Under the pieces are notes generated by a model. It was not told the DNA's origin. It saw only the letters and a list, made by a program, of their open reading frames with translations, and made no database searches. From a virus (lineage: Duplodnaviria; Heunggongvirae; Uroviricota; Caudoviricetes): a DNA stretch of 33,498 nt. The position numbers and the translations under genes are program-made. Numbering within the stretch: position 1 is the stretch's first letter; each line of letters starts with the position of its first letter. Positions 698-33,498 of this stretch are shown here, in pieces. Location: the IMG/VR virus record IMGVR_UViG_2711768056_000010. One strand, written 5' to 3'.

Positions 698-1060
698 GGG
701 GCTGATTCTGGATTCGACGGGATTTGCGAAACCCAAGGTGCATGCCGAGGGGCGGTTGGCCTCGTAAAAAGCCGCAAAAAATAGTCGCAAACGACGAAAA
801 CTACGCTTTAGCAGCTTAATAACCTGCTTAGAGCCCTCTCTCCCTAGCCTCCGCTCTTAGGACGGGGATCAAGAGAGGTCAAACCCAAAAGAGATCGCGT
901 GGAAGCCCTGCCTGGGGTTGAAGCGTTAAAACTTAATCAGGCTAGTTTGTTAGTGGCGTGTCCGTCCGCAGCTGGCAAGCGAATGTAAAGACTGACTAAG
1001 CATGTAGTACCGAGGATGTAGGAATTTCGGACGCGGGTTCAACTCCCGCCAGCTCCACCA
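698..1060 (+). ncRNA. ssrA: tmRNA (transfer-messenger RNA, SsrA)
   Basis: Begins GGGGCTGATTCTGGATTCGACGG, contains the tag-reading frame GCAAACGACGAAAACTACGCTTTAGCAGCTTAA (ANDENYALAA*) and ends ...GGGTTCAACTCCCGCCAGCTCCACCA; 363 nt, matches enterobacterial ssrA from memory. Confidence 0.95.
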
Positions 1061-1070
1061 AATAAATCAA

Positions 1071-1103
1071 GGGGTTACGTGAAAGCGTAGCCCCTTTTTC
1101 TTT
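1071..1103 (+). terminator. Rho-independent terminator downstream of ssrA
   Basis: Stem GGGGTTACG / CGTAGCCCC (one G-U pair) with 6-nt loop, followed by TTTTTCTTT. Confidence 0.65.
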
Positions 1104-1183
1104 GGTAGTGGCGGCAAAATGGCGACAGACTTTTGCGTCCATCTTGCCTGTCGCCATCTTGAAATCATGCAAAGAGGTTTCAC

Positions 1184-1666
1184 ATGGAAGAACTTCACTT
1201 TGTTTACATCAATGCAAATGGTCGTATCGCTGTTCACTCTATACAGAGCATCAGTTATAGCGAAAATCATATACAGGGCATTTGTAAGAACACCGATCGA
1301 ATAAAAACCTTCCGAAAAGACCGCATTCTTAAACAGTACGATTCACCAGAACAAGCCATTCAGGAATGCGCGTCATTCCTCCCCGAAAGCTACTCACATC
1401 TCACTAAGCAGTCTGGTCCGAAAAAAAATACATTCGATGTGTGTTTCACCGGATTTAAGAAAGCAGATAAAGAAAGATTGGTTGATAAGGCGAATGAACA
1501 AGGATTAACGGTAAGAACCTCTATAACCCAAAGCCTTCAGATGCTCTGTTGCGGTTACAATGCAGGCCCATCAAAAGTATCGGCAGCCAGGATGAAAGGC
1601 ACAATCATCATAGATGAGCCTGGCTTTATACATTTTCTTGAAACGGGTGAGATCCCAGATGAATAA
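1184..1666 (+). CDS. Hypothetical protein with C-terminal BRCT-like domain (prophage cargo)
   Basis: ATG at 1184 preceded by AAGAGG; about 40% GC; C-terminal segment FTGF..ADKERLVDKANEQGLTV...GYNAGPSKVSAARMKGTIIIDEPGFIHFL aligns by eye with the BRCT domain of NAD-dependent ligase LigA. Confidence 0.55.
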   Translation: MEELHFVYINANGRIAVHSIQSISYSENHIQGICKNTDRIKTFRKDRILKQYDSPEQAIQECASFLPESYSHLTKQSGPKKNTFDVCFTGFKKADKERLVDKANEQGLTVRTSITQSLQMLCCGYNAGPSKVSAARMKGTIIIDEPGFIHFLETGEIPDE

Positions 1667-1694
1667 AAACCTGCCGTAGCAGGTTCTCTTTCTC
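1664..1694. terminator. Bidirectional hairpin between convergent BRCT gene and ogr
   Basis: AACCTGC-cgta-GCAGGTT stem-loop flanked by an A-run on one side and a T-rich run on the other, between two convergent stops. Confidence 0.55.
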
Positions 1695-1911
1695 AAAAAT
1701 TCATATGCCCCTGACCACCTGGCAATGGATGTGGAGGAGCAGTAGCAATCAGTGCGGGTGTCACAATAAACCGGACCACTGTTTCATGAGTAACAAAAGT
1801 GCTCCCGCAGTTAATATTTTGGCACTGGCAGTAACGCTCTTTGGTGCTTTCAGTTACTTGAAAACTGCTCCTTGTGTGTGCCGCATGACCACACTTTGGA
1901 CAATTCATCAT
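1693..1911 (-). CDS. ogr: Ogr/Delta-type zinc-finger late-gene transcription activator
   Basis: MNCPKCGHAAHTRSS...ERYCQCQNINCGSTF matches the C-x2-C...C-x4-C signature of P2 Ogr; ORF-track start trimmed to the tandem ATGs at 1911/1908; lies downstream of D as in P2. Confidence 0.85.
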   Translation of the reverse strand: MMNCPKCGHAAHTRSSFQVTESTKERYCQCQNINCGSTFVTHETVVRFIVTPALIATAPPHPLPGGQGHMNF

Positions 1912-1979
1912 ATCCAGATCCCTACCTTTGCTATCAGAATCATTGTAATGATACACAAAATATCAATATTGAGAACACT

Positions 1980-3080
1980 TTATTCCATTTCAAGATCATC
2001 AATCTTCACTTCGAGTTCAATACTGGTTGTAAAACCGTTATCCGGGCTGACGGTATGTGTCAGAGTCGTAATGGTCCATTCCGCATCATCTATCGGCTGT
2101 TTAAAACCACTGACCTTCACAGGCATTTCCGTGTAGAGATCTGCCCGCCCTTCTGCCAGTTGTAGCGAAAATGACGCAACGCCGCGTTGCAGGCGTTCCC
2201 ACTGCATTTTCGCCGCTCGTTCGGCGTTGCTCCGGTTGGCATAAGTGCGATTAAGTACCAGCACGTTTTCATCCGTACCCACCAGGTAATCGCCCTGCTT
2301 CGCTTCTGGCTCTTTCTTCTGCTTCTTAGTTCTGCGCTTACGCTTCACCGTGGTGCTTTCTTTCTTCGCAGGTTCGCGGGTATGCAACCAGCTGGCAATT
2401 ACGCCCGTGTAGGCTCCGCGATCTGCCAGGGTAAATCGGTGACTGTCGCCGTCCTTGCGTGTGATAGTGATCACTGGCAGAGGTTTACCAGTGGCGCTTT
2501 TGCCCTGCCCCTGCCGGATGAATAACAGATTGCCATTTTTCACCGACGCGATGGCACCGTACTGTCGCGCCAGCCGCATCAGAAAATTGCCGTCACTCTC
2601 ATTAGTCTGGTCTATATGCTCCACGGGCTTATCCGACAGGTCTTTACCCAGTGCCATCTTCAGCTTGTGCCGCGCGGCTATTTCCTTCACCACTTCCCCG
2701 ACGGTGGTCTTATGCCACGATTTTTCACGGCGGGTATTCAGCGTTTCCCGAAAATCAGCACTTCGCGCCCGGATAGTCAGGCGGTCCGGTGCGCCAGTGT
2801 GTTCAATCTCGTCCACTGTGAATGCCCCTTTCGGGAAAAGCGGCTGCCCCTTCCAGCCCAGCGCCAGCGTAATAACCGCACCACGGCGCGGCAGCACGAT
2901 TTTTCCGTCAGCGTCATCCAGCTCCAGATCAAGCTGGTCCGCTTCAAAGCCCCGGTTATCCGTCAGCGTCAAACTCATCAGGCGGTTATCCAGCACAGTG
3001 GTGATATCCCTGCCCTCAATACTGATGCTGAATGCGGGAGTTTTGTTGCCTTTGTTAAGCAGTTCAGAGCTGAAATTCAC
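1980..3080 (-). CDS. D: Tail protein D (late control D)
   Basis: 366 aa, position and sequence consistent with P2 gpD; follows U. Confidence 0.85.
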   Translation of the reverse strand: MNFSSELLNKGNKTPAFSISIEGRDITTVLDNRLMSLTLTDNRGFEADQLDLELDDADGKIVLPRRGAVITLALGWKGQPLFPKGAFTVDEIEHTGAPDRLTIRARSADFRETLNTRREKSWHKTTVGEVVKEIAARHKLKMALGKDLSDKPVEHIDQTNESDGNFLMRLARQYGAIASVKNGNLLFIRQGQGKSATGKPLPVITITRKDGDSHRFTLADRGAYTGVIASWLHTREPAKKESTTVKRKRRTKKQKKEPEAKQGDYLVGTDENVLVLNRTYANRSNAERAAKMQWERLQRGVASFSLQLAEGRADLYTEMPVKVSGFKQPIDDAEWTITTLTHTVSPDNGFTTSIELEVKIDDLEME

Positions 3081-23309: not shown

Positions 23310-24428
23310 TTAGTTCGTAATGCCAATTTCCTTCAAAACTTTAGCCATTTCCGTCTGACTTAACTTGTTCCTGAACAAAGTGAAATTTTTCATTTTTTCC
23401 GCTCGTTGCCCTTTTGAAATAGTAATCTTTCCTGATGCTGATAACTCAGAGTCAAAAAAATAACATATTGTTGAATTTGAATTCTCCATATTTGACTTGA
23501 TACAATTCCATATGCTTTCTTTTTTCATTTCACACATTCTAGGACCAAAAATGATCCCTTTAACAACATTAGCATCATGATGAAAAATATGTCCAATATT
23601 TCGATTTACGCGTCTTTGAACATGCCGCTCACTCCCTATTCCTGCATTTGCCTCCGGAATAAACATTCGATATTCAGCTTCATATCTCCAAAATCTATTT
23701 TTAGTTAAAAATAACTCTGCAACATTTGCGCTTGGGTCTAGAAGTGAAACCTCTTTAGCCTGATTACTATATTTTATTGGCTTAACTGGAAAATTAAATT
23801 TATCTGATGAAAATAAATTTTCTCTTAGCTTCATTCCAGTATAGGGTATACCATCAATATTAAAATCCTGCGTTTCATAAATCACAACACAACCACTAAA
23901 GCCAGCAGCATAATGCGCCCACATCATACGATCTAACGCATTAGCTGAAAATGACACACTGAATACTGCAGGAACTATTTTCCTATACAACCTTTCTTTG
24001 ATACTGTTCTCGCAAAGTGAAACCAAATATTGGCGTGGTTCAGGAATATTTCCATAAATAGCAGAATTAATCACATTGATAGGTAGTAAACCATCATCTA
24101 TGATCTTACGTATCTCATCAACGTGTGAGTCAAACAGGCTATCTAATGACTCAATGCTACTTTTTATTTTTTTTCCTCTAAAAATACGATTCAATCCCTT
24201 ATGTATTTTCAAATTACTCAAATCCAATATGTGACTCAAATTTTTATAGGATTTATCGCAAGGAGAACGCAATAAAATGTCCCATAATTTCAATTTATTA
24301 TCGAAGCGATAATCTATATTGAGATCATTGGGATCATTCAATTGCGCAGGAGCGGAAAAATATAATTCATTATAACGAATAGCTTTCTCAAAGAAGAAGT
24401 CCGGACGGTAATACTTGAAAAGATACAT
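23310..24428 (-). CDS. Orphan DUF2971-like protein (hotspot cargo; candidate defence/abortive-infection gene)
   Basis: 372 aa, markedly AT-rich; motifs LFKYY...ELYFSAP..LNDPND, MWAHYA and FWRYEAEYR resemble DUF2971 as I remember it; own upstream intergenic region and own terminator. Confidence 0.6.
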   Translation of the reverse strand: MYLFKYYRPDFFFEKAIRYNELYFSAPAQLNDPNDLNIDYRFDNKLKLWDILLRSPCDKSYKNLSHILDLSNLKIHKGLNRIFRGKKIKSSIESLDSLFDSHVDEIRKIIDDGLLPINVINSAIYGNIPEPRQYLVSLCENSIKERLYRKIVPAVFSVSFSANALDRMMWAHYAAGFSGCVVIYETQDFNIDGIPYTGMKLRENLFSSDKFNFPVKPIKYSNQAKEVSLLDPSANVAELFLTKNRFWRYEAEYRMFIPEANAGIGSERHVQRRVNRNIGHIFHHDANVVKGIIFGPRMCEMKKESIWNCIKSNMENSNSTICYFFDSELSASGKITISKGQRAEKMKNFTLFRNKLSQTEMAKVLKEIGITN

Positions 24429-24812: not shown

Positions 24813-25046
24813 TTAATGCAGCCAGCTGTCGTCTTCCCACACCTTCTGCATAATTTTCATCACTTGTTTCCTTTCTTCGTCCAGTTGCAGTCCGGTCAGT
24901 TCCACACCGTTAGAGCTACCTTTACGGATACGAATTACCGTTTTGGGATACAGGGGGCGCAGATTGCGGTAAAGCTCTGATTCAAGGGCGTCCAGGGTAG
25001 ACTGGCTAATCTTCTGCTCTTTATCGATCATTATTTCAATGCGCAT
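24813..25046 (-). CDS. dinI: DinI-like protein
   Basis: MRIEIMIDKEQKISQSTLDALESEL...QKVWEDDSWLH resembles DinI (MRIEVTIAK...WESADDWF); ORF-track start trimmed to ATG at 25046 with GAGGGGA Shine-Dalgarno sequence. Confidence 0.75.
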   Translation of the reverse strand: MRIEIMIDKEQKISQSTLDALESELYRNLRPLYPKTVIRIRKGSSNGVELTGLQLDEERKQVMKIMQKVWEDDSWLH

Positions 25047-25056
25047 AAAAGTCCCC

Positions 25057-25245
25057 TCAGCTGATGACATCCATTGAGCGGTTGTATTCGTGGCTTCTGA
25101 TTTTTGCCATGAGTTCATCTGTCAGTTCAGAAACCCACTGCAGGGCCAGCCCCTTCTCTTCATCACTACACTCACTAGCCGCTACAAGCTTAAGAAAAAA
25201 ATCAATGCGCTGGAGCTTCAAAGACTCCAAAAAATAGTCCTGCAT
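25057..25245 (-). CDS. Small SOS-controlled protein, possible Tum-like antirepressor N-terminal module
   Basis: 62 aa from ATG at 25245 with a strong AGGAGG Shine-Dalgarno sequence; LexA box 45 bp upstream; 10 nt upstream of dinI-like gene; role inferred from position equivalent to 186 tum. Confidence 0.5.
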   Translation of the reverse strand: MQDYFLESLKLQRIDFFLKLVAASECSDEEKGLALQWVSELTDELMAKIRSHEYNRSMDVIS

Positions 25246-30610: not shown

Positions 30611-31243
30611 ATGTTAAACATCAGAATGGGTTCCGATACGGGAGGTAAAGCAGCTATTGAGAGGCTGCTTGCGGCTTATGGATTTACAACTAAGCAGGCA
30701 TTAAGCGAGCACCTGAATGTCTCAAAAAGCACTATGGCGAACAGAGTGTTACGTGACAGTTTTCCTGCTGACTGGATAATTCAGTGCGCACTAGAAACCG
30801 GTGTTTCGTTACTTTGGTTAGCTACAGGACAGGGAAGCATGAAAGGAGGAAGTGAGCCTGAAAAAAGTTCTCACAATGAGAACAAACAAGCAATTAAACC
30901 GTTATCCAAACTCATAACTCCATCTATTCCTAAAGGAACCTTGGAGAATGGACAACTCAGTATTGATGAAGAGATTTTCTTAGACCACAGCATATTACCT
31001 GCAGATTATGAAGAATCGATGTTCTTAGAAACCCCTACTGATTGTTATCTCATCGATAAATCAGTTAAACAAGTCAGCAATGGATTCTGGCTTATCAATA
31101 TTGATGGAATGATTATTATTGCAAAAATCATGCGGATTCCCGGCAATAAGATTGTAGTAAATCAAGATGAAGCGTCTTTCGAGTGCTCTGCTGATGATGT
31201 GGAAGTTATTGGGCGTGCAGTCAAAGTAATAAAGAGTATCTAA
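30611..31243 (+). CDS. cI: CI-like immunity repressor
   Basis: 210 aa; N-terminal HTH region (ERLLAAYGF...CALETGVSLLWLATGQG) resembles 186 CI; directly upstream of int. Confidence 0.8.
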   Translation: MLNIRMGSDTGGKAAIERLLAAYGFTTKQALSEHLNVSKSTMANRVLRDSFPADWIIQCALETGVSLLWLATGQGSMKGGSEPEKSSHNENKQAIKPLSKLITPSIPKGTLENGQLSIDEEIFLDHSILPADYEESMFLETPTDCYLIDKSVKQVSNGFWLINIDGMIIIAKIMRIPGNKIVVNQDEASFECSADDVEVIGRAVKVIKSI

Positions 31244-31245
31244 AC

Positions 31246-32268
31246 ATGACTGTCAGAAAACAGCCAAACGGTAAATGGTTGTGCGAGTGCTATCCCAATG
31301 GACGCAATGGCAAGCGCGTGCGTAAGCAATTTGCTACGAAAGGCGAAGCCATTGCTTTTGAAAGCTTCACAATGGAAGAGGTAAATAAGAAACCTTGGCT
31401 AGGAGAAAAAGAAGATCGGCGACAACTGTCAGAAGTGATTGAGCAGTGGTATTCCCTGTATGGTCAGACACTCGCTGACCCAAAGCGTTTGATGGCAAAA
31501 TTAAAAATTATTTGTACCGGTCTCGGCAATCCTATTGCCTCGGAACTGACAGCAGGTGATTTCACAAAATATCGGGAAGCCAGATTAAAGGGGGAGGTCA
31601 AAAATGAAGACGGTGTTTTCATGTCCCCCGTAAAACCTCGCACGGTTAATCTTGAGCAGCGTAACCTGTCATCTGTATTCGGCACATTGAAAAAACTAGG
31701 ACACTGGTCAGCACCAAACCCATTGGCAGGGCTTCCAACATTTAAAATTGCTGAAGGTGAATTGGCATTCCTATCTCAGGAGGAAATTAAACGCCTACTT
31801 GACGCCTGCGCAAACTCTCAAAATCCAAGTCTGTTGATGATCGCAAAGGTATGCTTGGCTACCGGCGCGCGCTGGAGTGAAGCGGAAAACTTACAGGGCC
31901 ACCAATTATCAAAATACCGTATTACCTATACAAAGACGAAAGGAAAGAAAAATAGGACAGTACCGATATCTCAGGCTCTCTATGACGAACTCCCCAAAAA
32001 CAGAGGGAAGTTATTCACGCCATGCAGAAAGGCTTTTGAACGAGCGGTCAAACGGGCTGGTATTGAACTGCCTGAAGGTCAGTGTACCCATGTTCTGCGC
32101 CATACATTCGCCAGTCATTTTATGATGAACGGTGGAAACATACTCGTTTTGAAAGATATTCTTGGGCATTCAGATATTAAAATGACTATGATTTATGCAC
32201 ATTTTTCCCCTGATCATTTAGAAGATGCAGTAACTAAAAATCCACTTTATTCGCTATTAAAGGACTAA
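31246..32268 (+). CDS. int: Tyrosine integrase (P2/186 family)
   Basis: 340 aa with C-terminal catalytic motifs (...HVLRHTFASHF...LGHSDIKMTMIYAH...). Confidence 0.9.
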   Translation: MTVRKQPNGKWLCECYPNGRNGKRVRKQFATKGEAIAFESFTMEEVNKKPWLGEKEDRRQLSEVIEQWYSLYGQTLADPKRLMAKLKIICTGLGNPIASELTAGDFTKYREARLKGEVKNEDGVFMSPVKPRTVNLEQRNLSSVFGTLKKLGHWSAPNPLAGLPTFKIAEGELAFLSQEEIKRLLDACANSQNPSLLMIAKVCLATGARWSEAENLQGHQLSKYRITYTKTKGKKNRTVPISQALYDELPKNRGKLFTPCRKAFERAVKRAGIELPEGQCTHVLRHTFASHFMMNGGNILVLKDILGHSDIKMTMIYAHFSPDHLEDAVTKNPLYSLLKD

Positions 32269-32271
32269 ATA

Positions 32272-33498
32272 ATGACTCTCCATCAAACTTTATCTAAAGA
32301 ATTAAGAGATTTATTTGTTAGTATTTTAAGACGTTCTCTTTTTCGCCCCCCCATCAAAATAAATGGGGATATAGTCTCTGATTTTTCAAACAGATGCGAG
32401 CAGTTCAAAGAGTGCCTAAATGAATACATTTGTGATAACAATAATGCTGCTTCCGAAAGAGTTAAGCCAAGAATTAAAACTATTGAAAAAATACAACATG
32501 GATTAACTAATTCTCTTAAAGCATTTTTATCTGGCGACATTAAAGGAGCCTACGATATTTTTGATGAAGTTTTATCATACCCTACTGTCTATAGACATCT
32601 AAGAAGAATATCCATTCCACTAAAAGAAATATGTAATAAGCACAAGCCTTTATTCAGGGTAAGAAAGTCAGATAGACCAGTCGTAACAAGAAAGGAAATA
32701 TTTCATATCCCATTCACTCATCGACATCTTGTCAATGCTCAACGCTACTCCGTTGCAGGTTTGCCATGCCTTTACTTAGGTTCATCTCTCTATATATGCT
32801 GGCAGGAAATGGATAAACCTGACTTTGATAAATTATACCTATCATCATTTATATCTTGGGATGAGGAATCTTATATTTTAAATTTAGCTGCAGATTTTCT
32901 TTACAGTAGAACCGCTAAAGGATTTTACGGTGATATTAGTAATAGAGATAACCTCATTAAAATATCATATTTAACTTTATGGCCTCTGATAATTGCATGT
33001 AATTATTTAAAGCAGAATGAAAACTCTTCATTTAATCAAGAATATATCATCCCAAATTTGTTAATGCAGTGGATAAGTCGACTTGAAGATAGAGCTATTG
33101 TCGGCATAGCATATCGCTCAACAAAAATAAAAAGAACAGCAAACTCACACTTAGCAACTAATGTCGTCTTGCCTCCAAAAGTAAACTATGAAGATACAAT
33201 CACAAAACCTTATTGTCAGAAACTATTGTCAATGTTTGAGTTTACTCAACCTGTATCATGGCAGGTTTTGAAAACATTAGACTATAAAATTGATAATGAA
33301 ATAAATCAAGAGCAAGAAAAAGCAATTCATTTACTAAAACAGAAAGAAAGATTAAGTGGCATACAAGATTTAAATGAAGATCTTATAAACCTTTATCCTT
33401 TAACAGACTTCTACAAGCTAGAACAGTGCATGGATCGCCTGCTGCAGTATGATGTACTTGAGATAAAATCTGGCGGCACTTTGGCGGCAGAGCATTAA
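32272..33498 (+). CDS. Hypothetical cargo protein with RES-like motif
   Basis: 408 aa, strongly AT-rich; starts 4 nt after int stop with AAGGA Shine-Dalgarno sequence; RYSVAGLPCLYLGSSLYICWQE resembles the Arg...Glu...Ser core of RES domains; stop codon is the last triplet of the window. Confidence 0.55.
   Translation: MTLHQTLSKELRDLFVSILRRSLFRPPIKINGDIVSDFSNRCEQFKECLNEYICDNNNAASERVKPRIKTIEKIQHGLTNSLKAFLSGDIKGAYDIFDEVLSYPTVYRHLRRISIPLKEICNKHKPLFRVRKSDRPVVTRKEIFHIPFTHRHLVNAQRYSVAGLPCLYLGSSLYICWQEMDKPDFDKLYLSSFISWDEESYILNLAADFLYSRTAKGFYGDISNRDNLIKISYLTLWPLIIACNYLKQNENSSFNQEYIIPNLLMQWISRLEDRAIVGIAYRSTKIKRTANSHLATNVVLPPKVNYEDTITKPYCQKLLSMFEFTQPVSWQVLKTLDYKIDNEINQEQEKAIHLLKQKERLSGIQDLNEDLINLYPLTDFYKLEQCMDRLLQYDVLEIKSGGTLAAEH

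What the first reader, a model, noticed from the sequence alone, without database searches (positions are those of the whole stretch)
1184..1666. AT-rich BRCT-domain protein between ssrA and the ogr end of the prophage
Seen: a 160-aa ORF with a good Shine-Dalgarno sequence and about 40% GC lies between the tmRNA terminator and ogr, separated from ogr by a bidirectional hairpin. Its C-terminal 70 residues align by eye with the LigA-type BRCT fold. Established: BRCT domains bind phosphorylated proteins or nicked DNA. Inference: a small stand-alone BRCT protein at a prophage terminus, possibly interfering with host ligase/repair or with incoming phage DNA; it may equally belong to a separate islet at ssrA.
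Basis: partly seen in the sequence, partly recalled or inferred. Interest (0 to 1): 0.45.

Follow-up and report, generated by a model that had tools for sequence, protein, structure and literature searches.

The report
Prophage WYL–BRCT DNA-sensor protein at attL
A real 160-residue gene just inside the left end of a P2/186-like prophage at ssrA encodes an ssDNA-sensor-type WYL barrel fused to a ligase-type BRCT domain; its family is widespread but uncharacterised, travels with the immunity-repressor operon of temperate phages, and is probably a DNA nick/gap reader used in phage-phage conflict, though its function is untested.

Summary
ORF 1184-1666 (+) is a real gene under purifying selection, with an AAGAGG ribosome-binding site and 41% GC against 51.5% for the prophage. 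It lies between a strong ssrA terminator and a two-way hairpin shared with ogr.

Two points need correcting:
- **Not a bare BRCT.** Residues 1-75 form a WYL domain; the best structural matches are PafBC, CapW and DriD.
- **Not a separate islet.** The 48-bp att repeat (1016-1063) places the gene inside the prophage. The isolated phage Cartapus carries it 124 bp from attP.

The family (phrog_2561, mislabelled "DNA ligase") has at least 197 distinct representatives. In Mannheimia, Vibrio, Xenorhabdus, Serratia and Burkholderia P2-like phages it sits in the CI repressor operon. Sister phages carry a retron reverse transcriptase or a membrane protein in the same slot.

Best reading, inferred only: a phage accessory protein that reads 5'-phosphate nicks or gaps plus ssDNA and acts in superinfection exclusion. 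A role in the phage's own lysis-lysogeny control is the main rival. No experiment addresses this family.

The parts
698..1060 (+). Host ssrA (tmRNA) gene. Its 3' end is re-created by the phage att core.
   Evidence: ARAGORN finds a tmRNA with tag ANDENYALAA. It is 100% conserved in E. coli genomes.
1016..1063 (.). attL core: 48 bp identical to the repeat at attR, and to attP in phage Cartapus.
   Evidence: The same sequence occurs at L001 8585-8632, about 90 bp after the orf408 stop. A 45-bp ssrA match lies in the Cartapus genome between the orf408 homolog and the WYL-BRCT gene. Host homology ends at about 1061.
1069..1096 (+). Phage-supplied intrinsic terminator for ssrA: a 12-bp stem, GAAA loop and U-run.
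   Evidence: dG -19.8 kcal/mol, z -5.7. It is conserved, with pair-preserving changes, in diverged loci.
1109..1127 (+). Direct repeat TGGCGGCA-AAA-TGGCGACA, likely P' arm-type integrase sites of attP. A third, inverted copy lies at 1149-1156.
   Evidence: 14 matches in the window against 3.7 expected, and an identical 11-bp-spaced pair at 33471-33489 beside attR. It is invariant across diverged loci, including the sister prophage with different cargo. That these are Int binding sites is inferred.
1172..1177 (+). Shine-Dalgarno sequence AAGAGG, 6 nt upstream of the ATG.
   Evidence: Read directly from the sequence. An AAAGGTGA equivalent is conserved in diverged loci.
1184..1666 (+). WYL-BRCT protein gene (160 aa), the subject of the finding.
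1190..1402 (+). N-terminal WYL domain: aa 3-52 form a five-stranded Sm-like barrel, followed by two helices to aa 73. It carries the KTFRKDRI motif (aa 41-48); Y8 and T42 are invariant.
1436..1645 (+). C-terminal BRCT domain (aa 85-154) of the LigA/RFC1 class. T89, G90, F91 and K131 are invariant and K96 nearly so, which together form the phosphate pocket.
1668..1685 (.). Two-way hairpin terminator shared by the WYL-BRCT gene and ogr.
   Evidence: dG -10.8 on the + strand; -17.5 with a UUUUAUU tail on the - strand.
1693..1956 (-). ogr (late-gene activator). It marks the end of the prophage's convergent late operon.
   Evidence: Pfam Ogr_Delta E 1.5e-20.
30611..32268 (+). CI repressor (30611-31243) and integrase (31246-32268): the lysogeny operon that lies upstream of the WYL-BRCT gene on the circular phage map.
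   Evidence: Pfam Phage_CI_repr, Phage_CI_C, Int_N and Phage_integrase. Cartapus has the order CI-int-X-attP-WYL-BRCT.
32272..33498 (+). orf408: variable cargo gene between int and attR (33% GC). On the circular map it lies directly upstream of attP and the WYL-BRCT gene. It is not a conserved partner.
   Evidence: No Pfam or PADLOC hit. It is 50% identical to Cartapus gp33. Only 7 E. coli genomes carry it, against about 170 carrying the int type and the WYL-BRCT gene. Other prophages have unrelated membrane proteins in this slot.
33471..33489 (+). Direct repeat TGGCGGCA-CTT-TGGCGGCA, likely P arm-type integrase sites. It lies inside the last codons of orf408.

Best explanation
SHOWN
- The ORF is a genuine accessory gene of a P2/186-like (Peduoviridae) prophage integrated in ssrA. 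It lies inside the att-delimited element, between the attP P' arm and the ogr terminator.
- Its product has two domains joined by a linker of about 10 residues. The first is a divergent WYL barrel, the fold that binds ssDNA in CapW, DriD and PafBC. The second is a LigA/RFC1-class BRCT with an intact Thr-Gly...Lys phosphate pocket.
- There is no HTH domain, no enzymatic domain and no conserved partner gene.
- The family is widespread. In most genera it is encoded in the immunity operon, directly after CI or between CI and int. In the enterobacterial ssrA lineage it follows int and attP on the same strand.

INFERRED
- The protein reads a composite DNA structure: an ss/ds junction, nick or gap carrying a 5' phosphate. 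The WYL domain would bind the single strand and the BRCT domain the 5'-phosphate duplex end.
- My preferred function is a moron-type factor of inter-phage conflict, that is, superinfection exclusion or defence. It would occupy nicks or gaps in an invader's DNA, such as annealed cos ends or replication and recombination intermediates. That would deny them to host LigA and repair enzymes, or flag them.
- In relatives fused to transmembrane or unknown C-terminal domains, the same module would act as the sensor for an attached effector.
- How the gene is transcribed in this prophage is unresolved. There is a strong terminator upstream and no recognisable sigma-70 promoter.
For: Identity and boundaries:
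- Cartapus has the contiguous order CI-int-X-attP-gene-ogr.
- The arrangement is syntenic across enterobacterial genera, with the protein at 59-72% identity and gene D at about 87%.

Real gene.

BRCT domain:
- Searches support the assignment.
- The invariant T89, G90 and K131 align with the Thr-Gly and Lys of the Rfc1 BRCT.

WYL domain:
- Searches support the assignment.
- The KTFRKDRI motif matches the Pfam-type RtFrldRI signature.
- CapW, DriD and PafBC bind ssDNA through this domain (PMC11662680, PMC10853764, PMC11804915).

Lysogeny-operon position:
- Mannheimia PHL101: CI then the gene, 3-nt gap.
- Vibrio PV94: CI-gene-hyp-int.
- Xenorhabdus: CI-gene-int.
- L098: CI-gene, 2-nt gap, then int.
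- Serratia and L099: HTH-Flk_N-gene-int.
- Burkholderia: XRE-hyp-gene, then convergent D.

Cargo-slot behaviour:
- A sister ssrA prophage has a retron-type RT at the same attL-ogr slot.
- Burkholderia phiBP82.2-type phages have a 299-aa membrane protein in the same slot, between homologous flanking genes.
- That slot is highly expressed in lysogens, and the phiBP82.2 gp36 deletion lysogen is viable (PMC13026187).
- The Vibrio cI-int interval was called a defence hotspot (PMC9122126). A hotspot between a tail protein and CI, and another between int and att, were reported for P2-like phages (10.1101/2024.10.15.618418; PMC13586616).

Other support:
- The ORF is 10 points lower in GC than the prophage.
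- Sensor-plus-effector architectures exist, with TM-fused, C-terminal-domain-fused and multi-BRCT relatives.
- One homolog sits in an island with Mrr, a methylase and an integrase.
- The gene is dispensable: IS1-disrupted and frameshifted copies exist.
Against: - No experiment addresses this family. No paper in the searchable library links WYL+BRCT to any phenotype. Makarova et al. 2014 only list the architecture.
- The protein has no effector domain, so the exclusion mechanism is conjecture.
- The gene is not highly variable within its lineage. About 170 E. coli prophages with this int type nearly all keep it, and it is syntenic across genera. That looks more like a lineage-conserved phage function than fast-turnover defence cargo.
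- The tight 2-3 nt spacing to CI or int in several phages would equally suit a regulator of lysogeny.
- In this window the gene is cut off from the CI-int operon by attP and a strong terminator, and no sigma-70 promoter was found in 1097-1183. Expression in the lysogen is therefore unproven.
- PADLOC has no model for the family; the PDC-S48 match covers only the BRCT part.
- DNA binding and the 5'-phosphate preference are inferred from homology and predicted structure only.
Confidence: 0.38

Rival explanations
1. The protein is a lysis-lysogeny or recombination modulator. It would be a built-in, RecA-independent DNA-damage sensor of the phage. Its WYL domain would bind damage-generated ssDNA and its BRCT domain would dock on CI, Int or a gapped DNA site. 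The effect would be to modulate repressor activity, induction, or integration and excision.
For: - The gene is encoded immediately after CI or before int, with 2-3 nt gaps, in several genera. That suggests co-translation with those proteins.
- It is conserved within the lineage rather than rapidly exchanged.
- All characterised ssDNA-binding WYL proteins are DNA-damage signal transducers (PMC11662680, PMC10853764, PMC11804915).
- It lies 28 nt from a putative Int arm site.
- In Burkholderia phiBP82.2, the neighbouring genes of the same operon (gp37, gp38) control the lytic switch (PMC13026187).
Against: - There is no DNA-binding HTH and no known output domain.
- The prophage already has a Tum/DinI-like gene for SOS induction.
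- Sister phages replace the gene with a retron RT or a membrane protein without losing lysogeny functions.
- In phiBP82.2, the occupant of the equivalent slot (gp36) could be deleted in the lysogen without killing it, unlike gp37 and gp38 (PMC13026187).
- P2 and 186 do not appear among the 28 phage records that carry a homolog.
- IS-disrupted copies persist in intact-looking prophages.
Confidence: 0.27
2. The protein helps the phage's own DNA metabolism. It would bind the 5'-phosphate nicks left when the 19-nt cos ends anneal, or rolling-circle intermediates. There it would protect them from nucleases or recruit host LigA or Pol I to seal them.
For: - The BRCT is closest to the nick- and gap-binding class: LigA, Rfc1 and phage PR1 ligase subunit B.
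- All carriers identified are cos-type P2-like phages.
- On the circular genome the gene is transcribed in the direction of the establishment operon.
Against: - The gene sits on the lysogenic (CI) strand, not in the early lytic or replication operon.
- It is absent from most P2-like phages, with only 28 of 50,697 phage records carrying a homolog, so it cannot be needed for cos sealing.
- The incoming genome must circularise before any phage protein is made.
- It is replaceable by unrelated cargo.
Confidence: 0.12
3. The protein is an anti-defence or host-takeover factor. By masking ssDNA and nicks in phage DNA, it would hide the signals that host WYL-regulated or DNA-end-sensing immune systems and repair nucleases detect.
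For: - It uses the same ssDNA-sensing fold as the host regulators CapW and BrxR, which switch on CBASS and BREX (PMC11662680). It could therefore compete for their ligand.
- It is small and non-enzymatic, as many anti-defence proteins are.
Against: - Its position in the lysogeny operon is unlike that of typical early-expressed anti-defence genes.
- TM-fused relatives look like sensor-effector defence proteins rather than inhibitors.
- There is no match to any described anti-defence family in the libraries searched.
Confidence: 0.08
4. It is not a functional phage gene. It would be either a conserved host gene or separate islet next to ssrA, or a decayed fragment of an NAD-dependent DNA ligase, as the 'DNA ligase' labels in PHROGs and RefSeq suggest.
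For: - PHROG and RefSeq phage records label homologs 'DNA ligase' or 'putative exonuclease'.
- Weak NCBIfam hits fall on the C-termini of LigA and of a DEDDh exonuclease.
Against: - The gene lies inside the att repeats and inside an isolated phage genome, and is absent from about 97% of E. coli genomes.
- Length is conserved at about 155-185 aa across hundreds of representatives.
- It is under strong purifying selection.
- The matches to ligase cover only the BRCT and linker. No adenylation, OB, Zn or HhH domains are present.
- The N-terminus is a folded WYL domain, not ligase sequence.
Confidence: 0.01

Closest known systems
LigA / RFC1-class BRCT domains (bacterial NAD+ ligase C-terminus; Rfc1 N-terminal BRCT; phage split-ligase subunit B)
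   Different: No catalytic or clamp-loader modules are attached. Here the BRCT is paired with a WYL barrel in a 160-aa protein. Binding to 5'-phosphate DNA is inferred, not measured.
wHTH-WYL-WCX regulators that sense ssDNA (CapW, BrxR, DriD, PafBC)
   Different: The protein lacks the wHTH DNA-binding domain and the WCX dimerisation domain. The W-Y-L tripeptide itself is not conserved (N-H-I here). The output module is a BRCT, so it cannot act as a classical transcription factor.
Repressor-operon 'moron' exclusion genes (lambda rexAB downstream of cI; mycobacteriophage prophage-mediated defence genes next to repressor and integrase), cited from my own knowledge
   Same: The gene is co-directional with, and usually directly downstream of, the immunity repressor. 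It has low GC, is dispensable, and is exchangeable with other cargo.
   Different: There is no sequence or structural relationship to those genes, and no exclusion phenotype has been shown. In this E. coli lineage the gene lies beyond attP, so integration separates it from the CI-int transcript.
P2-like phage accessory and defence hotspots (Rousset 2022 PMC9122126; iLund4u 10.1101/2024.10.15.618418; NAR 2026 PMC13586616)
   Same: The gene falls in the interval between CI and the tail-end genes (D, ogr), which contains int and attP. Those papers report hotspots 'between a tail protein and CI', 'cI-int' (Vibrio) and 'int-att'. A sister prophage carries a retron RT in this slot.
   Different: Neither paper's main text mentions ogr or BRCT. 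The att-ogr side is not singled out. The gene is much more conserved than typical hotspot cargo.
PADLOC candidate system PDC-S48
   Same: It shares a homologous C-terminal BRCT (E 4e-7 for this protein; up to 1.9e-13 for family members).
   Different: The match covers only profile positions of about 297-406 of 411. The WYL domain and the rest of PDC-S48 do not correspond, so this is not the same family.
phrog_2561 and RefSeq 'BRCT domain-containing protein' (for example WP_000391794.1 in E. coli S88)
   Same: Full-length membership, E 2.4e-76. It is annotated as such in some RefSeq genomes.
   Different: The PHROG functional label 'DNA ligase' is not supported, and no function is known for the cluster.

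Membership tests
BRCT domain (PF00533) | Pfam gathering score (21.3 bits) reached | tested here: not met
   This copy scores 18.6 bits, E 0.0022. However, 29 of 44 homologs hit at E <= 0.01, best 1.2e-7, and distant members pass clearly, e.g. P0151 at 74.6 bits and P0163 at 37.0 bits.
BRCT domain (PF00533) | beta-alpha-beta-beta-alpha-beta-alpha fold | tested here: met
BRCT domain, phosphate-binding (LigA/RFC1) class | Ser/Thr-Gly after beta1 and Lys at the start of alpha2, forming the phosphate pocket | tested here: met
   T89, G90 and K131 are invariant and K96 is nearly invariant. They align to the Thr-Gly and Lys of the yeast Rfc1 BRCT. That these residues contact the 5' phosphate in RFC1 is from my own knowledge and was not checked here.
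BRCT domain, phosphate-binding (LigA/RFC1) class | Binds 5'-phosphorylated nicked, gapped or recessed DNA | not testable with these tools
   This needs EMSA or anisotropy with defined substrates.
WYL domain (PF13280) | Sm-like five-stranded barrel most similar to known WYL domains | tested here: met
WYL domain (PF13280) | Pfam gathering score (21.8 bits) reached | tested here: not met
   Pfam reports no WYL hit for this copy, and the PADLOC WYL model gives E 0.041. Homologs found with the family profile do pass: P0139 28.5, P0238 27.8, P0203 27.6, P0151 25.1 and P0197 22.8 bits. The PADLOC WYL model scores 3.7e-9 for P0139.
WYL domain (PF13280) | Signature motifs: the W-Y-L tripeptide and R-t-F-r-l-d-R-I | tested here: inconclusive
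   KTFRKDRI (aa 41-48) matches the second motif, with T42 invariant and F43 and R44 conserved in at least 90% of members. The W-Y-L position reads N-H-I, and only the H/Y is conserved. The mapping was done by eye against the consensus, not by structural superposition.
wHTH-WYL-WCX transcription regulators (CapW, BrxR, DriD, PafBC) | N-terminal winged HTH and C-terminal WCX domain | tested here: not met
   The protein begins with the WYL barrel at aa 3 and ends with the BRCT. There is no HTH hit in Pfam, NCBIfam or PADLOC, and the model shows no such domains. It is therefore not a member, although it may sense the same ligand.
NAD-dependent DNA ligase (the label on phrog_2561 and RefSeq phage records) | Adenylation domain plus OB, Zn-finger and HhH domains | tested here: not met
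   Only the last ~70-115 positions of the LigA models (up to 106 residues of this protein) align (TIGR00575 positions 548-650, E 9.6e-4; phrog_3869 positions 532-651). The protein is 160 aa with no catalytic domain.
phrog_2561 | Full-length HMM match | tested here: met
   E 2.4e-76, protein residues 1-159 against profile positions 2-167 of 167.
PADLOC PDC-S48 | Match over the whole 411-position model | tested here: not met
   Only positions 334-406 match. The same holds for longer fused relatives.
Prophage cargo (moron) gene in a P2-like hotspot | Lies inside the att-delimited prophage and packaged genome | tested here: met
Prophage cargo (moron) gene in a P2-like hotspot | Unrelated alternative genes occupy the same slot between conserved flanks in sister phages | tested here: met
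   A retron-type RT (RT_VI, 7.8e-18) sits between the conserved P' arm and ogr in NZ_CM125665.1. In Burkholderia, a 299-aa membrane protein replaces the WYL-BRCT gene between the gp37 homolog (46% identity) and D (98% identity).
Prophage cargo (moron) gene in a P2-like hotspot | Confers a phenotype on the lysogen (phage exclusion or fitness) | not testable with these tools
   This needs plaque assays with the cloned gene and with deletion lysogens.

The most novel reading that the evidence does not exclude
WYL-BRCT proteins would be a new class of effector-less DNA-structure readers that temperate phages co-express with their repressor. One small protein would recognise ssDNA together with a 5'-phosphate junction, the signature of gapped, nicked or cos-annealed DNA. 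It would then do one of two things. It could block ligation or repair of a superinfecting genome, which would be immunity by occlusion without any enzyme. Or it could couple DNA damage to prophage induction independently of RecA, LexA and Tum. In the ssrA-integrating lineage the gene lies beyond attP, so integration itself would rewire its expression.
Probability: 0.2. Interest if true: 0.7.

Novelty: new variant of a known kind. Interest (0 to 1): 0.45.

Why it matters
Characterised WYL proteins that sense ssDNA work through an attached HTH (CapW, BrxR, DriD, PafBC). BRCT domains in bacteria are known almost only as the tail of LigA. A minimal WYL+BRCT protein with no enzyme and no HTH, kept next to the immunity repressor of P2-like phages from Pasteurellaceae to Burkholderia, suggests a different use of the ssDNA signal. 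If it excludes phages by occupying nicks or gaps, that would be a simple, portable, non-enzymatic immunity principle. If it feeds DNA damage into the lysis-lysogeny switch, it would explain induction routes in phages whose repressors are not RecA-cleavable.

There is also a practical gain. Public annotations of this family as 'DNA ligase' or 'exonuclease' are wrong and should read WYL-BRCT.

Tried and rejected
- **PDC-S48.** I asked whether the family equals the PADLOC candidate system PDC-S48. Only the BRCT part matches, including for 400-aa fused relatives, so I rejected this.
- **A two-gene system with orf408.** I asked whether the gene pairs with orf408, the neighbour across attP. orf408 and its Cartapus homolog (50% identity) occur in only 7 E. 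coli genomes, against about 170 with the WYL-BRCT gene. Other prophages carry unrelated membrane proteins there. No partner is conserved in other genera either. Rejected.
- **phiBP82.2 gp36 as experimental evidence.** I tested whether Burkholderia phiBP82.2 gp36 (PMC13026187) is a WYL-BRCT homolog. The published deletion primers place gp36 in the same slot next to D. The phiBP82.2-type gene, however, is a 299-aa membrane protein. It therefore informs only about the slot (expressed in lysogens, dispensable), not about this protein.
- **The 37-kb 'plasmid' p13P477T-2 as an excised phage circle.** It contains recN, bamE, smpB and ssrA host flanks. It is probably an assembly artefact, so I did not use it.
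- **Fusion partners as functional clues.** The extensions have no Pfam domains apart from extra BRCTs. Some are transmembrane, and one recurrent C-terminal domain of about 230 aa is unknown.
- **A sigma-70 promoter in 1097-1183.** None was found by the scan or by eye.
- **Sequence-only search of the N-domain profile against the PDB.** It returned nothing significant; only the fold comparison identified the WYL domain.
- **AFDB fold search.** The library was unavailable.
- **Literature searches.** Searches for WYL+BRCT, BRCT+prophage and PDC-S48 found no functional study.
Full report
**What is in the window.**
- The window opens with the host genes smpB (1-483) and ssrA (tmRNA, 698-1060).
- A P2/186-like prophage follows: ogr (1693-1956, -), gene D (1980-3080, -), the tail, head and replication genes, then CII, CI (30611-31243), integrase (31246-32268) and a 408-aa ORF that ends at the window edge.
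- The finding is the ORF at 1184-1666 (+).

**Checking the observation.**
- The ORF is 160 aa with an ATG start. AAGAGG lies at 1172-1177, 6 nt upstream.
- GC is 41.4% against 51.5% for the prophage.
- Upstream is a strong hairpin with a U-run at 1069-1096 (dG -19.8, z -5.7).
- Downstream is a hairpin at 1668-1685 that folds on both strands. It is followed by UUUUAUU on the ogr strand.
- The ORF is a real gene. It matches phrog_2561 end to end (E 2.4e-76) and has 112 homologs.
- Against 59-72%-identical homologs, synonymous sites are saturated (pS about 0.8) while pN is about 0.2. The close Cartapus pair gives dN/dS 0.18.

**Is it inside the prophage?** Yes.
- All 5426 complete E. coli genomes match the window up to about 1061 and then diverge. 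Only 165-177 genomes carry the ORF.
- In a genome with the identical prophage, the sequence of window 1016-1063 (the ssrA 3' end) recurs about 90 bp after the stop of the 408-aa ORF. The prophage therefore runs from attL at 1016-1063 to just beyond the window's end.
- The isolated phage Cartapus (Peduoviridae, Elveevirus) has the contiguous order CI, int, orf408 homolog, 45-bp ssrA core (attP), 124-bp spacer, this gene, ogr (convergent). The gene is therefore part of the packaged phage genome.
- The spacer holds the phage-supplied ssrA terminator and a direct repeat TGGCGGCA-AAA-TGGCGACA at 1109-1127.
  - This repeat is invariant in diverged loci, and even in a sister prophage with different cargo.
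  - An identical 11-bp-spaced pair sits at 33471-33489 beside attR.
  - I read these as the P' and P arm-type integrase sites; this is inferred.
- Cargo-specific sequence starts at about 1131.
- The 'separate islet' alternative is refuted.

**What the protein is.**
- *The BRCT call holds.*
  - Pfam is sub-threshold for this copy (18.6 against 21.3 bits).
  - 29 of 44 homologs hit PF00533.
  - The family profile finds the Rfc1 BRCT (6.5e-6) and the LigA BRCT (2e-5) among solved structures.
  - The invariant residues T89, G90 and K131, with K96 nearly invariant, sit at the Thr-Gly...Lys phosphate-pocket positions.
- *The N-terminal half is a separate WYL domain, not a linker.*
  - Modelled alone (pLDDT 91.5), aa 3-52 form a five-stranded barrel.
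  - Distant family members pass the Pfam WYL threshold and the PADLOC WYL model.
  - The KTFRKDRI motif matches the WYL signature.
- The WYL domains of CapW, DriD and PafBC bind ssDNA (PMC11662680, PMC10853764, PMC11804915).
- The protein has no HTH, no WCX and no enzyme domain. It is not a ligase, despite database labels.
- Makarova et al. 2014 list WYL+BRCT among observed architectures without comment. I found no functional study.

**Family and context.**
- An exhaustive profile search found 2586 cluster representatives at E <= 1e-3 and 197 at E <= 1e-30.
- Most are stand-alone proteins of 155-185 aa. Some are fused to N-terminal transmembrane segments, to extra BRCTs, or to a recurrent unknown C-terminal domain of about 230 aa.
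- The genomic position is consistent.

| Host or locus | Gene order |
|---|---|
| Mannheimia PHL101 | CI, then gene (3-nt gap) |
| Vibrio PV94 | CI, gene, hyp, int |
| Xenorhabdus | CI, gene, int |
| Metagenomic P2-like contig L098 | CI, gene (2-nt gap), int |
| Serratia and L099 | HTH, Flk_N, gene, (YebY), int |
| Burkholderia vB_FUB5a | XRE, hyp, gene, then convergent D |
| L101 (BRCT-only relative) | in a CI/S24 repressor operon |

- In enterobacteria of several genera the order is ssrA/attL, gene, convergent ogr, D.
- On the circular map all of these fall in the same interval, from CI to the D/ogr end, and always on the CI strand.
- Two contexts are not phage-like: an island with Mrr, a methylase and an integrase, and a chromosomal site.

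**Cargo behaviour.**
- A sister ssrA prophage (NZ_CM125665.1) keeps the att core, terminator and arm repeats. It carries a retron-type reverse transcriptase instead of this gene.
- In Burkholderia, published deletion primers for phiBP82.2 gp36 map to the same slot next to D.
  - That phage type carries a 299-aa membrane protein there. Its flanks are a gp37 homolog (46% identity) and a D gene (98% identity).
  - The paper reports that the gp38-gp37-gp36 cassette is highly expressed in lysogens. It also reports that the gp36 deletion lysogen is viable, unlike the gp37 and gp38 deletions (PMC13026187).
  - This informs about the slot, not about the WYL-BRCT protein itself.
- Published surveys place P2-like hotspots 'between a tail protein and CI', at 'cI-int' in Vibrio phages, and at 'int-att' (10.1101/2024.10.15.618418, PMC9122126, PMC13586616). 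Neither the Rousset 2022 nor the NAR 2026 main text contains 'ogr' or 'BRCT'.
- Against a pure fast-turnover picture, nearly all of the roughly 170 E. coli prophages with this integrase type keep the gene. The neighbouring int-attR slot is the truly variable one.

**How it most likely works.**
- *Shown:* a two-module protein with an ssDNA-sensor fold and a 5'-phosphate-pocket BRCT. It is encoded as a phage accessory gene associated with the lysogeny operon.
- *Inferred:* it reads nicks, gaps or ss/ds junctions that bear a 5' phosphate.
- *Preferred function (confidence about 0.38):* inter-phage conflict. The protein would occupy such structures in an invader's DNA, for example annealed cos nicks or replication and recombination intermediates. 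It would compete with LigA and repair enzymes. The TM-fused and domain-fused relatives would use the same module as a sensor for an attached effector.
- *Main rival (about 0.27):* a RecA-independent damage sensor that modulates the phage's own switch or recombination. The tight coupling to CI and int and the lineage conservation favour this. The replaceability of the gene and the presence of a Tum/DinI-like gene argue against it.
- *Lesser rivals:* a helper for cos sealing or end protection (about 0.12), and an anti-defence decoy for ssDNA-sensing host regulators (about 0.08).
- *Unresolved:* expression in this prophage. Integration separates the gene from CI-int. A strong terminator lies upstream in both the integrated and circular forms. 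No sigma-70 promoter was found.

**Verdict.**
BRCT and the prophage terminus are correct. 'Stand-alone' is wrong, and the 'separate islet' alternative is refuted.
- The gene belongs to an existing but functionally blank family. It combines two known DNA-signal modules in a way not yet studied. I rate it a new variant of a known kind, with moderate interest (0.45).

Noticed in passing
window 32272-33498 (+): orf408 is a 33%-GC gene between int and attR with no Pfam or PADLOC hit. It is 50% identical to Cartapus gp33, which its depositors call 'putative RES protein, NAD+ binding domain'. Only 7 of 5426 E. coli genomes carry it, and other prophages have unrelated membrane proteins in this slot. 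This looks like the int-att hotspot reported for P2-like phages.
   Followed up: partly
window 23310-24428 (-): A 372-aa, 33%-GC gene matches the PADLOC candidate defence family PDC-S31 (E 7e-24) and, weakly, DUF2971. It sits in the replication-gene-to-portal hotspot, where P2 carries old and tin.
   Followed up: partly
window 1109-1127, 1149-1156 and 33471-33489: The octamer TGGCGRCA occurs as 11-bp-spaced direct pairs next to both att ends, with 14 copies in the window against 3.7 expected. These are probably integrase arm-type sites. The attR-side pair lies inside the last codons of orf408, and a third, inverted copy lies 28 nt upstream of the WYL-BRCT start codon.
   Followed up: partly
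L001 8814-14174 (NZ_OY754453.1, beyond attR): Directly after the prophage's attR there is a second integrase with psu and delta genes. This is a P4-like satellite integrated in tandem at the regenerated ssrA site.
   Followed up: no
L002 3570-4485 (NZ_CM125665.1): A sister ssrA prophage carries a 257-aa retron-type reverse transcriptase (best PADLOC match RT_VI, 7.8e-18) plus a 57-aa ORF in place of the WYL-BRCT gene. I did not look for an msr/msd ncRNA or an effector.
   Followed up: partly
window 24813-25118 (-): A DinI-like family ORF (Pfam 1.3e-22) resembles the 186 Tum antirepressor type. The prophage therefore probably has an SOS-linked induction route of its own.
   Followed up: no
NZ_CP020835.1 (hit H84) and NZ_CP019275.1 (L102 4551-5034): One strain has an IS1 inserted in the WYL-BRCT gene, and another record annotates the gene as frameshifted. 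The 37-kb 'plasmid' p13P477T-2 contains chromosomal genes (recN, bamE, smpB, ssrA) next to the prophage, so it is probably an assembly artefact rather than an excised phage.
   Followed up: partly
L003 4001-4483; L004 3980-4498; phrog_2561: Public annotations of this family are misleading: 'putative exonuclease protein' in Cartapus, and 'DNA ligase' in Mannheimia phages and PHROGs. Only the BRCT tail resembles LigA.
   Followed up: yes
P0150, P0156, P0171, P0172 (residues ~170-400): A recurrent unknown C-terminal domain of about 230 aa (motif ...LRTLPRRQALIA.F..GYA.GW.FAV...WTQGH.F.F..G...) is fused to the WYL-BRCT module. It probably corresponds to phrog_36782. It has no Pfam match and could be the effector of a single-protein system.
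   Followed up: no
L083, L085-L088 (between the WYL-BRCT gene and ogr): In some diverged enterobacterial prophages, an extra 1-2.4 kb lies between the WYL-BRCT gene and ogr. This indicates additional cargo in the same slot.
   Followed up: no
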